Shown here one piece after another: positions 47,501 through 50,500 of a DNA stretch of 64,000 bases (positions are counted from its first letter, which is position 1; each line of letters opens with the position of its first letter). The stretch covers positions 68,944,001 through 69,008,000 of the forward strand of contig CM075980.1 of the NCBI GenBank assembly GCA_038087875.1, written 5' to 3'. The translations under genes were made by a program, and so were the position numbers. The notes under the pieces are model-generated. The model searched no databases. It was given only the letters and a program-made list of their open reading frames with translations, and was not told where the DNA came from. The DNA comes from Malacoraja senta (Eukaryota).

Positions 47501-50500
47501 CAAATGTTCTTCTGTGTTAGAATCCCATATGTTCACCCCTCCTTGGATGAAAACATGTGTCCGTGTCGCTGTACACTGTGGACGGCTTGATTGTAATTCA
47601 GGTCTAGTCTTTTCTCTGACTGGATAGCATGCAACAAAAAGTATTTTGTCAATACATGACAATAATAAACTAAACTGAACTAAAGTAAATGGCTTACTCT
47701 GTATTGTAGTCAGTGTCACTCATGTTATGAGTCATACTGTGGCTCCACCCACAGGTTTAATAGAAAGCCTTTTCCCTTTCTCAGTCTTGAGCTGTATGTT
47801 AAGATGAAGTTACCTATGCTGAATTGCTAATAAAAGTCTTTGGATCCTAATCACTGTGCATGAGTTATGTCAATCCAACGTGGTGTCAGAAGTGGGATAC
47901 GAACCCACCTCTCCAATCGGAGACCAGAACAATAATCTAACAAATGTCCTGGACCGTGCCAATGCAATCAACCTCAAGTTAAACCCTCAAAAATGCAAAT
48001 TCAGAGTAAGTGAGGTGAACTACGTAGGCCATGTGTTCACTAAAGACGGCCTAAAAATTGATCCGGCAAAAACCATTGCTATCAACGAGTTACCAGCACC
48101 CACAGACGTGCTTAGTCTGCAGAGATTCCTTGGCATGGTAAACTACCTGAGTAAATGTATTCCGAACTTCAGTGAAATATCAGCCCCGCTGCGCCAGCTT
48201 ACTCACAAAGACACTGTTTGGGCCTGGCACGAGCAACAGCAGAGGGCGTTTGACACTATTAAGCAACAAATGTCTTGTGCCCCTACTCTCGCTTATTTTT
48301 TTCCTAAACGACCGGTCAACCTGACTTGTGATGCTTCACAACACGGACCAGGTGCAGCATGTCTTCAAGATGACGGTAGCGGCAGCAAGCCTGTCACCTA
48401 TGCCTAGCGCACCATGACTGACACTGAACAACACTACGCCCAAATTGTAAAGGAGCTGCTAGCAGTCGTTTTCGCCTGCAAGAAGTTGACCACCAACCCC
48501 CTGGTCAGCATCTTTAACAAACCGATTCATGCCTCTCCAGGACGCCTTCAACGGATGTTGCTTCAACTTCAAAAGTATGACATTGTTCTGACCTACAAAC
48601 GTGGTAAGGATATGCACCTGGCTGACACCCTCTCGCGTGCACCCCAAAAGACCTGTGAGGGTCCGCCCTCATCGGATGACGACTTTGTAATAATGACTGT
48701 GTCTTTTATTCCCTCGTCCTGTGTGGAGGGCCTGGTTGCCCACACTGCTGCTGATAGTACCTTACGGTCGCTCGCCTCCGTCATTAAACGCGGCTGGCCT
48801 GACAAGCACTACAATCTACCGCTGCCAGTTCGGCCCTTCTTTGCCGTCCGTGATGAACTAGTACTACAAGATGGTATTATCGTAAAAGGCCACAAGGCTG
48901 TAGTCCCTGCTTCTTTACACAGCAAGTATTTTAATGCTGTCCATGCAGGGCACCCAGGCACTGAAGCAACTGTCCTACTTCCAACTTCCTACTTACTAGC
49001 AAAAAACATGTTTTACTGGCCTGGTATGGCTGAATACATTTTCGAGAATGTGGCATCCTGTGCAGTGTGTAACAGCTTGGCACCTCATCAACAAAAGCAA
49101 CCACTTCTCTCACACCCGGCTCCTGCCCTACAGTGGCAACTGACATATTTGAGTGGCATGGCAAGCAGTACCAGGTTCTTGTGGACTCGTATTCCGGCTG
49201 GTTTTACATCGATCTTCTTAGTAGCCTCACTTCTCACGGGGTAGTTCTACAACTCGCTCGCCATTTTGTAGAGCACGGAGCTCCTTGTCAACTGCTATCT
49301 GATAACGGCAGTCAATTTACCAGCCAGCACTTCAAAGAGTTTGCTGCATGCTGTGGAGTTTCGCCACATCACCAGCAGCCCTGAATATCCTCAGTCGAAT
49401 GGACTGGCTGAACGGGCTGTCAGGAGTGCCAAACAATTAATGGAACAATCCCACAGCTAATTCCGATGTGTACCTGGCCCTGCTCAACCTGCGCAACATC
49501 TCCCGCGACCCCATCTTGGGTTCACCTGCTCAACGTTTATTGTCAAGACAGACCCGAGCCACAGTGTCTGTAGCAGATCAGGCATTGATCCCGCAGGTGG
49601 TCCCACCATCAGAAGTCCAATCCAGGCTGCAACAAAAGCGTGACAAAGTGGTATGACAAAACAAGCAGACCGCTGCCACCATTAACCGAGGGGCAGGTGG
49701 TTCGTTTGCAAACCGACAAAGGTCATGACTGTATCGGTGTGATTTCTGGATCTGCCTCTGAGCCACGCTCATATTTGGTCAATGCTGATGGTGGCACCTA
49801 CAGACATAATAGGCAACATATCCTGCCTGTGAATGAGTCAGCTCCACCTCCGTATTATCCTGACCATACAAATGTACTTCCATCCACGTCCAGCGGCATC
49901 GGCCCGCCGGCACCAGCACAACAACCTGTTTCTGAAACGGTTACTTTGCCAATGGCGACGCCTCCTCCGCCTGTACCAAAGTCCCGTGTTTCGTCACCGG
50001 GAATGCCGTTTCAATCTCCGCCACCAATTATACCACTGACTCTGTCCCCGGTGGCAAAGAACGGAAATGGTTTATATCGCACACGTGCTGGTCGTGCTTG
50101 CAAGCCCACCGTAAAGTACCCGGCTATAGTTTGACTTTCCTCCAGCTTATTATAATTTACTATGCATTCCTTATTTAGTCAATAGTTTTGTATTTACATT
50201 TAATTCTTTAAGAGGGAGGATGTAGATCAGTGTCACTCATGTTATGAGTCATACTGTGGCTCCGCCCACAGGTTTAATAGAAAACCTTTTTCCCTTTCTC
50301 TCTCAGTCTTGAGCTATATGTTAAGATGAAGTTACCTATGCTGAATTGCTAATAAAATCTTTGGATCCTAATCACTGTGTGTGAGTTGTGTCAATCCAAC
50401 ATATATCCTTTAGCTTTTCTAGACTAAGGACATGTGGAACTTCCACCAGTCTAACTCATGGACCAACATTACGTAAAACTAGAGTCATGACGAGGCCTTG

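What the first reader, a model, noticed from the sequence alone, without database searches (positions are those of the whole stretch)
47881..47960. Fossil of tRNA-primer read-through: 50-nt tRNA-Leu(CAA) copy with a position-58 mismatch, fused straight into pol
Seen: right after the 5' LTR, complementarity to tRNA-Leu(CAA) does not stop at the usual 18 nt (47881-47898). It continues to 47930 through the T arm, the variable arm (CTCC-GATT-GGAG hairpin) and the 3' anticodon stem. Base 47899, opposite tRNA position 58, is A where T is expected (TTCGTAT rather than TTCGAAT); two more differences from my recalled tRNA sequence lie at the variable-arm base. The match ends at position 37/38. The next bases are already mid-RT coding sequence ([18 protein letters not shown]), so the leader, gag, protease and RT catalytic core are absent while both LTRs, the PPT and the TSD are present. 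Known: m1A58 normally terminates plus-strand strong-stop DNA and causes misincorporation when read through; Leu tRNAs carry m1G37, a strong RT block. Inference: RT read through m1A58, stalled near m1G37, then strand-transferred aberrantly into pol. The insertion would then record host tRNA modifications in DNA and show one route to non-autonomous LTR elements.
Basis: partly seen in the sequence, partly recalled or inferred. Interest (0 to 1): 0.88.

Follow-up and report, generated by a model that had tools for sequence, protein, structure and literature searches.

The report
Retrotransposon fossils recording tRNA methylation
This dead jumping-gene copy carries 50 letters of its tRNA primer joined to the middle of its polymerase gene, likely because the copying enzyme overshot the primer and jumped; hundreds of similar copies in the same genome carry mismatches at spots where the tRNA is likely methylated, so the genome likely keeps a record of germline tRNA chemistry.

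Summary
47881-47930 is the complement of spliced, CCA-ended tRNA-Leu(CAA), 43 of 47 letters matching a host gene. It replaces about 2.5 kb of a Ty3/Gypsy element whose full-length copies have only an 11-12 nt primer site. It is not a one-off: 443 exact matches genome-wide, about a quarter of Leu-primed LTR junctions, from many LTR families, mostly with unique junctions; 26 of 60 examined have perfect target-site duplications. Mismatches pile up opposite A58 (34 of 86), a variable-loop C (30 of 40, also in this copy) and G37 (5 of 7), against mostly 0-10% elsewhere; the A58 mismatch is already present in copies with identical LTRs. Best reading: plus-strand synthesis overshoots the primer, then primes inside the element by microhomology (5 nt here), and the product integrates. 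The same accident is published for 44 defective HIV-1 proviruses, so the mechanism is known; its scale, germline fixation and multi-mark record were not found in ten literature searches. Not shown: this copy's exact stop, re-amplification as non-autonomous families, and that the loop mismatch is m3C rather than unassembled tRNA genes.

The parts
47700..47704 (+). left target-site duplication (5 bp, one mismatch to the right copy)
   Evidence: sequence
47705..47880 (+). 5' LTR, 176 nt
   Evidence: 561 candidates in the genome, 40 scored
47881..47892 (+). part of the tRNA-Leu complement that the family itself encodes (11-12 nt primer site)
   Evidence: 11 of 11 family copies examined stop matching after 11-12 nt
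47893..47930 (+). over-extension: DNA copy of tRNA-Leu(CAA) from the T stem through the variable arm to position 38/37
   Evidence: 43 of 47 identity of 47884-47930 to host gene L201; absent from full-length copies
47899..47899 (+). A instead of T opposite tRNA A58, likely misincorporation at m1A58
   Evidence: 38 of the first 100 listed copies are non-T, 23 of them A; host genes have A58
47909..47910 (+). two further differences at the variable-arm base, likely later mutations
   Evidence: these places mismatch in only 4 of 80 and 0 of 75 copies
47916..47916 (+). A instead of G opposite the variable-loop C, likely misincorporation at m3C (e2/47d)
   Evidence: 30 of 40 copies mismatch here against 2 of 49 and 1 of 32 at the neighbours; all readable host genes have C
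47926..47930 (+). 5-nt microhomology shared by the tRNA copy and the RT landing site
   Evidence: pairwise comparison with full-length copies
47931..50134 (+). remnant of pol (RT thumb, RNase H, integrase), broken by stops and frameshifts
50210..50220 (+). polypurine tract
   Evidence: sequence; same tract before other 3' LTRs
50221..50401 (+). 3' LTR, 181 nt
50402..50406 (+). right target-site duplication
   Evidence: sequence

Best explanation
This is a Ty3/Gypsy insertion in which 50 nt of mature tRNA-Leu(CAA) complement replace about 2.5 kb of leader, gag, protease and RT core, likely because plus-strand synthesis overshot the tRNA primer and its free end then primed inside pol at a 5-nt microhomology before integration. 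Steps. Shown: the family encodes only 11-12 nt of primer site; the extra sequence matches spliced, CCA-ended tRNA; the landing sites differ from copy to copy; both LTRs and a target-site duplication are kept. Inferred: RT copies the attached primer past m1A58 (often inserting A), slows in the variable arm and before m1G37; the 3' tail has no partner on the minus strand, so it anneals at a short internal match, or joins the end of an unfinished minus strand, and synthesis runs on to the 3' LTR; integrase accepts the product because its ends are normal; the copy cannot replicate by itself. Inferred but untested: the short primer site is what makes the accident so common, because every strong-stop product of 18 nt or more ends in an unpaired tail.
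For: 443 exact matches of LTR-proximal tRNA complement to 27 nt, control 0; 87 of 90 examined sit directly behind CA; 37 LTR clusters among 134 sites; 86 of 90 junctions distinct. Base opposite A58 in the first 100 listed: T 62, A 23, C 14, G 1. Single mismatches at the other 26 places together number 116 (559 minus 443), against about 168 estimated at position 58 alone. 6 of 16 copies with LTR pairs at least 98.5% identical mismatch at 58, and 3 of the 6 with identical LTRs. A as the main wrong base fits the published m1A-U to dATP rule (PMC4787781, passage). Copies that pass position 37 are spliced and carry a wrong base there in 5 of 6 (5 of 7 with the whole-tRNA copy L117). 17 of the 21 copies that get past nt 43 end at nt 45-51. 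Overlap of 3 nt or more in 22 of 47 junctions against 11% simulated, p about 1e-9. Landing sites spread over the whole gag-pol, 63 sense and 11 antisense of 74 mapped. 26 of 60 long loci have perfect 5-bp duplications. Same class in 44 defective HIV-1 proviruses (PMC12657518).
Against: 22 of 69 located junctions show no overlap but extra or unlike letters, so microhomology is not the only route. 62 of 100 copies read T at 58 and cannot tell bypass from an unmethylated primer. Most ends (62 of 86) lie at nt 32-43, where the variable-arm hairpin could stop RT without any methyl group. 18 of 60 long loci show no 3' LTR within 5.8 kb. The link between correct reading at 58 and at the loop C is only suggestive (p 0.065 and 0.085). 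No modification was measured in this species. The assembly holds few Leu-CAA genes, so unassembled genes could explain the loop position. This copy's LTRs differ by 4%, so any single mismatch in it could be later decay.
Confidence: 0.9

Rival explanations
1. The long tRNA segment is the normal leader of a subfamily, gained once and inherited; the deletion came later.
For: A few junctions recur (L063/L078/L152; L263-L266).
Against: 11 of 11 family copies examined have an 11-12 nt site. The segment occurs behind 37 LTR clusters with lengths from 27 to 86 nt and ends at the deletion junction wherever the landing site could be located. The recurring junctions fall on natural matches in the antisense strand (6 nt for L263-L266; 16 or more letters for L272/L273) and have different inverted lengths and target sites.
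Confidence: 0.02
2. The deletion arose after insertion, by repair or recombination that patched in a tRNA cDNA or tRNA pseudogene.
For: This copy is old enough (4% LTR divergence) for later change, and has a small 5-nt loss beside the junction.
Against: The tRNA part always starts exactly at the LTR end with CCA, in register with the primer site; six copies with identical LTRs already have the structure; the template is spliced and carries wrong bases at methylation sites.
Confidence: 0.03
3. The mechanism is right but the mismatch at the variable-loop position reflects tRNA-Leu(CAA) genes missing from the assembly, not m3C.
For: Only one clearly intact Leu-CAA gene is assembled. m3C at this place is reported for Leu-CAG and Ser, not Leu-CAA, in human and zebrafish (PMC5066629, PMC11417395, passages). 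Metagenome copies from other hosts have a different, constant loop.
Against: All five readable Leu-CAA loops and all five Leu-CAG loops in the assembly have C there. All four bases occur opposite it, on both isodecoder backgrounds. The three Leu-CAG copies that run 7 nt or more past the loop also lack the expected G (L081, L120, L138), at the site where m3C is known.
Confidence: 0.2
4. End points are set by tRNA secondary structure and by where microhomology happens to lie, not by methyl groups.
For: Ends are spread over nt 32-43 and 45-51 rather than at single bases; subtracting the overlap flattens the peaks.
Against: Few copies pass nt 50, and those that do mostly carry a wrong base opposite G37; three of them end at or just before G26 and one mismatches there.
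Confidence: 0.3

Closest known systems
Aberrant (delayed) second-strand transfer in defective HIV-1 proviruses (Hardy et al. 2025, PMC12657518; seen: abstract, outline, section 11 in full, passages)
   Same: LTR, primer site, then tRNA complement defining a deletion junction; inserts of 7 to 54 nt; mismatch opposite A58 in 5 of 44.
   Different: There: somatic, an exogenous retrovirus with an 18-nt site, one case in the authors' own set plus 43 from GenBank. Here: germline-fixed, a Ty3/Gypsy retrotransposon with an 11-12 nt site, several hundred copies in one genome, about a quarter of Leu-primed junctions, with signals at three tRNA positions.
Plus-strand strong stop on the primer tRNA: m1A58 as main stop, minor stops at 55, 54 and 37 (PMC8599865 and PMC13191261, passages)
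   Same: Stops and bypass at modified bases of the primer; a class of copies ends at exactly 18 nt here too (about 34 of 100 junctions).
   Different: Those papers state that over-extended products cannot complete transfer or integrate; here they are integrated with target-site duplications. The barrier at 37 would be m1G, not ms2t6A.
Steamer/SURL-type (C-clade) Gypsy elements (PMC8905726, passages)
   Same: 12-bp tRNA-Leu primer site with the same letters, LTRs of about 180 bp, about 5 kb length.
   Different: The passages read describe no over-extended primer copies; clade membership needs a tree, which was not built.
Reverse-transcription signatures used in tRNA sequencing (PMC4787781, PMC5066629, PMC11417395, passages)
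   Same: Mismatch and stop at m1A58, m3C47d/e2, m1G37 and m2,2G26 of tRNA-Leu; dATP opposite m1A followed by U.
   Different: Made in vivo by an element's own RT and fixed in the germline, not by a laboratory enzyme.
Ty1/Ty3 plus-strand transfer, in which the primer site is inherited from the element (as summarised in PMC7472051, section 13; the original paper was not held) and deletions starting at the primer site in spleen necrosis virus vectors (Pulsinelli and Temin 1991; recalled, not held)
   Same: Short primer site; over-extended strong-stop DNA; deletions that begin at the primer site.
   Different: Recalled as dead-end or rare laboratory products, not as a large fixed genomic class.

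Membership tests
Ty3/Gypsy LTR retrotransposon | pol order protease, RT, RNase H, integrase | tested here: met
   Pfam on full-length copy L091 (protease, RVT_1) and on the window (RT_RNaseH_2, Integrase_H2C2, rve) in that order; best solved RT matches are 4ol8 and 7q5b, Ty3 Gag-Pol
Ty3/Gypsy LTR retrotransposon | two LTRs TG...CA, primer site, purine tract, short target-site duplication | tested here: met
   the 5' LTR of this copy ends CG and the duplication has one mismatch
Steamer/SURL-type C-clade Gypsy | 12-bp tRNA-Leu primer site, LTR about 180 bp, element about 5 kb | tested here: met
   against PMC8905726; the paper says these features are shared among C-clade branches
Steamer/SURL-type C-clade Gypsy | placement in the RT/RNase H tree | not tested
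   no reference sequences were fetched and no tree was built
Delayed second-strand-transfer product (as in HIV-1) | tRNA complement in register with the primer site, longer than the element-encoded site, defining the deletion junction | tested here: met
Delayed second-strand-transfer product (as in HIV-1) | template is mature tRNA (CCA, spliced) | tested here: met
   CCA in this copy; splicing shown in the copies that pass position 37, not testable in this copy
Delayed second-strand-transfer product (as in HIV-1) | formed before integration | tested here: met
   six copies with identical LTRs and perfect duplications already deleted; inferred for this copy
Record of tRNA base methylation | methyl groups present at 58, e2 and 37 in this species' tRNA-Leu | not testable with these tools
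   no RNA holder listed; inferred from mismatch pattern and from human and zebrafish data
Non-autonomous LTR family (TRIM/LARD-like) | one deleted structure amplified to several loci with different target sites | tested here: not met
   86 of 90 junctions distinct; the repeats are a duplicated pair with one target site, a close pair on one contig, or hotspots with different downstream structure
tRNA gene or tRNA-derived SINE | whole tRNA body or 5' tRNA head with internal promoter in sense orientation | tested here: not met
   only the 3' 50 nt, antisense, starting at CCA; ARAGORN finds no gene in the window (it also missed the intron-bearing host gene)

The most novel reading that the evidence does not exclude
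Leu-primed Gypsy elements with a short primer site routinely turn primer overshoot into integrated, heritable copies, so animal genomes hold hundreds of datable single-molecule records of germline tRNA methylation (m1A58, m1G37, m2,2G26 and an m3C on the Leu-CAA variable loop not reported in the human and zebrafish passages read): a natural tRNA-seq archive readable from genome assemblies alone, and the main source of defective copies in these families.
Probability: 0.6. Interest if true: 0.8.

Novelty: new variant of a known kind. Interest (0 to 1): 0.7.

Why it matters
Retrovirus work treats read-through of m1A58 as a dead end that blocks integration, and it has been seen only rarely in defective HIV-1 proviruses. 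Here it accounts for roughly a quarter of the Leu-primed LTR junctions sampled in a vertebrate genome, which gives a large in vivo data set on where a natural RT stops or errs on its primer, how much homology a stray plus strand needs, and how defective LTR copies arise. Because each copy is one RT pass over one germline tRNA molecule and can be dated by its LTRs, tRNA modification in non-model animals becomes testable from assemblies. It also warns annotators that primer sites of 18 nt or more in such families can be accidents, not the family's own site.

Tried and rejected
ARAGORN found no tRNA in the window or in six loci, including one real intron-bearing gene: uninformative. A search with one mismatch allowed listed only exact matches first, so mismatch places had to be taken by subtraction of counts. 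I first read the varied variable loops as many isodecoders; the assembled genes show only two Leu-CAA loops, so I changed to the misincorporation reading. The recurring 18-nt junction was first taken for a family with an 18-nt site or an amplified non-autonomous family; it is an antisense hotspot. A generic pattern for other primer tRNAs gave 24 matches against 20 in the control, 8 of them decayed Leu copies: no sign of other primers behind LTR ends in ACA. IMG/VR: 0 matches. Sequencing runs: no RNA holder listed. Contigs of four runs laid on 47300-48400 cover family copies and show three other tRNA-to-pol joints, but no listed piece spans this junction, so an orthologous copy was not seen. 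Whether unassembled Leu-CAA genes exist stays open. Dating in years was not attempted (no rate). Three older papers were not held. No supplementary files were read; those of PMC12657518 and PMC11417395 may bear on end points and on Leu-CAA marks.

Full report
1. The observation. The window is G000:C4:68944001-69008000 of a 1.94-Gb genome, probably a cartilaginous fish (my inference from recalled SINE motifs; no call names it). An LTR element spans 47705-50401: LTRs of 176 and 181 nt with 7 mismatches in 175 aligned letters, a purine tract at 50210-50220 and a 5-bp target-site duplication with one mismatch. Directly behind the 5' LTR, 47881-47930 is the complement of the 3' end of tRNA-Leu(CAA). 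Against the 3' exon of host gene L201 it differs at 4 of 47 places (47899, 47909, 47910, 47916), and its first three letters match a CCA end that the gene does not encode. The sequence then continues in pol: RNase H, integrase zinc finger and rve domains.

2. What the family looks like. Of 561 LTR candidates, 40 were scored and 30 fetched. Full-length copies of about 5 kb align to the window element over the LTR plus 11-12 nt, and again from 47933 onward; in L091 about 2.48 kb lie between. 11 of 11 family copies examined stop matching the tRNA after 11-12 nt. So even letters 13-18 of the window's primer site come from the tRNA, not from the element. The landing site lies 14 codons behind the VDD motif; the RT there contains AGAAC, the same five letters that end the tRNA copy, and 5 nt are missing just downstream. 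The stop can therefore lie anywhere from tRNA position 41 to 37. L039, from another LTR family, landed within a few bases of the same place. Domain order and the best solved matches (Ty3 RT) make this a Ty3/Gypsy element; primer site, LTR size and length match Steamer/SURL-type C-clade elements (PMC8905726, passages), but no tree was built.

3. It is a class, not a one-off. A 27-letter pattern from the CCA end with N opposite A58 has 443 exact matches, the reversed control none. I examined 90 of the first 100 listed, all on contig C1: 87 follow CA directly and 86 have distinct junctions. The 134 sites held at that point fall into 37 LTR clusters. Of 1795 matches for LTR end plus 11-nt site (control 8), my hand count of the first 100 gives 27 long over-extensions, one of 23 nt, about 34 of 18 nt and 38 short; the pattern's last letter passes all long copies but about three quarters of the others, so the long share is about 22-27%. 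Of 60 long loci, 42 have a 3' LTR-like match within 5.8 kb and 18 do not; 26 have a perfect 5-bp duplication (two of them one duplicated locus); six have identical full LTR pairs with internal lengths of 1551 to 4218 nt. The deletions are thus present in the youngest insertions, which points to formation before integration.

4. Position 58. Base opposite A58 in the first 100 listed: T 62, A 23, C 14, G 1. The T pattern with up to one mismatch has 559 matches; subtracting 443 leaves 116 single mismatches over the other 26 places, against about 168 at this one place (38% of 443, extrapolated from C1). Among 16 distinct copies with LTR identity of 98.5% or more, 6 are non-T, and 3 of the 6 with identical LTRs, so decay does not explain it. 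Readable host genes have A58: Leu-CAA L201, L202/L203, L205 and five Leu-CAG genes. The site is not a CpG base, and A as the main wrong base fits the report that m1A followed by U draws dATP (PMC4787781, passage). Seven matches with the Leu-CAG acceptor show A in 5 (two are one locus).

5. Further marks. Opposite the variable-loop C, 30 of 40 unbiased copies mismatch (A 24, C 5, T 1), while the neighbours mismatch in 2 of 49 and 1 of 32; places outside the search pattern otherwise range from 0 to about 10%, highest at a CpG, apart from one place where the host genes themselves differ. All five readable Leu-CAA loops and five Leu-CAG loops in the assembly have C. m3C at this position (47d/e2) is reported for Leu-CAG in human and zebrafish, not for Leu-CAA (PMC5066629 and PMC11417395, passages). 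The window copy has the common wrong base at 47916. The rival, tRNA genes missing from the assembly, stays open. Five copies that pass position 37 were found by pattern; all are spliced. With L181, 5 of 6 carry a wrong base opposite G37; one search left out L117/L207, a copy of the whole tRNA with the expected base at 58, the loop C, 37 and 26, which makes it 5 of 7; L190 lacks a base there. L196, L190 and L198 end at or just before G26 and L199 mismatches at 26-25. Correct reading at 58 and at the loop C tend to go together, but weakly (p 0.065 and 0.085).

6. End points and joints. Of 86 distinct copies, 3 end before nt 32, 62 at nt 32-43 (variable arm), 17 at nt 45-51 and 4 score beyond, two of them doubtfully. 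So the stop before position 37 is a real barrier but the second most common one; the variable-arm stops may owe as much to the hairpin as to a methyl group. Landing sites were located for 79 of 134 sites; I dropped 10 (3 duplicates, 1 tandem copy, 6 landing in LTR, SINE or fold-back sequence). Of the 69 left, 47 overlap by 0 or more letters and 22 have extra or unlike letters; 22 of the 47 overlap by 3 or more against 11% in 20,000 simulated blunt joints, p about 1e-9. 74 of 90 downstream parts map on L091, from the leader to the end of integrase, 63 sense and 11 antisense. A frequent 18-nt junction turned out to be a 6-nt match on the antisense strand of RT, used by several LTR families with different inverted lengths and target sites: direct evidence that a free plus-strand end primes wherever it finds a short match.

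7. Mechanism. Shown: short element-encoded site, mature tRNA template, variable landing sites, intact ends. Inferred: after priming at the purine tract RT copies the LTR and then the primer, passes m1A58 in a large share of rounds, stops in the variable arm or before m1G37, and is left with a 3' tail that the minus strand cannot pair. The tail anneals at a short internal match, or joins the end of an unfinished minus strand; synthesis completes the 3' part; integrase inserts the product. The two sub-routes cannot be told apart here. That the short site causes the high rate is a hypothesis; in its favour only that no other primer tRNA shows an excess (24 matches against 20).

8. Non-autonomous elements. 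The products lack gag, protease or RT and so are defective, but I saw no amplified family: repeats among the 90 are a duplicated pair with one target site (L145/L146), a close pair on one contig (L081/L082) or hotspots.

9. Elsewhere. A metagenome scan gave 31 matches, 20 distinct by my filter, with T 17 and A 3 opposite A58; only 4 loci showed pol-like sequence nearby, so this is weaker evidence, from hosts I did not identify. Contigs of other runs show three more tRNA-to-pol joints.

10. What is known. Hardy et al. 2025 (PMC12657518; abstract, section 11, passages) describe delayed second-strand transfer in HIV-1: tRNA-Lys3 inserts of 7-54 nt at the deletion junction in 44 defective proviruses, 5 with a mismatch at 58. 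Stops at 58, 55, 54 and 37 are reviewed in PMC13191261, and PMC8599865 states that over-extended products cannot integrate (passages). Ten full-text searches of a library that lacks most subscription journals found no description of a fixed genomic class in retrotransposons or of modification signatures read from such copies; from these I saw listings and the passages named. Older work on Ty1 and on spleen necrosis virus vectors is recalled, not read.

11. Verdict. It works like, and meets the tested features of, a delayed second-strand-transfer product. The mechanism is known; the germline setting, the scale and the record of several tRNA marks appear to be a new variant. Interest 0.7.

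Noticed in passing
L117/L207 (G000:C4936, about 178,170-178,260): An LTR followed by the complement of the entire spliced tRNA-Leu(CAA), joined to integrase sequence, with the expected base at 58, the loop C, 37 and 26: likely a pass over an unmethylated primer.
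   Followed up: partly
L263-L269, L006, L027: 18-nt strong-stop ends joined through a 6-nt match to the antisense strand of RT, giving inverted internal segments of different lengths; one form of this junction makes up 7 of the first 100 junctions.
   Followed up: partly
L272 808-881 of the internal part; L063, L078, L152: The protease region of one family holds a natural antisense match of 16 or more letters to the tRNA T and variable arm, which acts as a landing hotspot.
   Followed up: partly
L043, L051, L056, L127, L187, L191, L195: Over-extended copies that fold back on the tRNA copy or jump back into their own LTR instead of into the coding region.
   Followed up: no
G000:C1:18245256 and C1:10477875 (listing): One copy skips two letters at positions 58-57; another ends at position 54, a stop known from HIV-1.
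   Followed up: no
window 50937-51083 and 53834-54295: Two reading frames downstream look like exons of a class 3 semaphorin (Ig domain and basic tail; label recalled, Pfam gives only weak Ig hits), so the element likely lies in an intron in the gene's orientation.
   Followed up: partly
G000: The assembly holds very few tRNA-Leu(CAA) genes (one clearly intact, a duplicated pair, three degenerate or truncated), which may mean collapsed tRNA clusters.
   Followed up: partly
window 59773-59971: Degenerate tandem array with a 10-nt unit, not examined.
   Followed up: no
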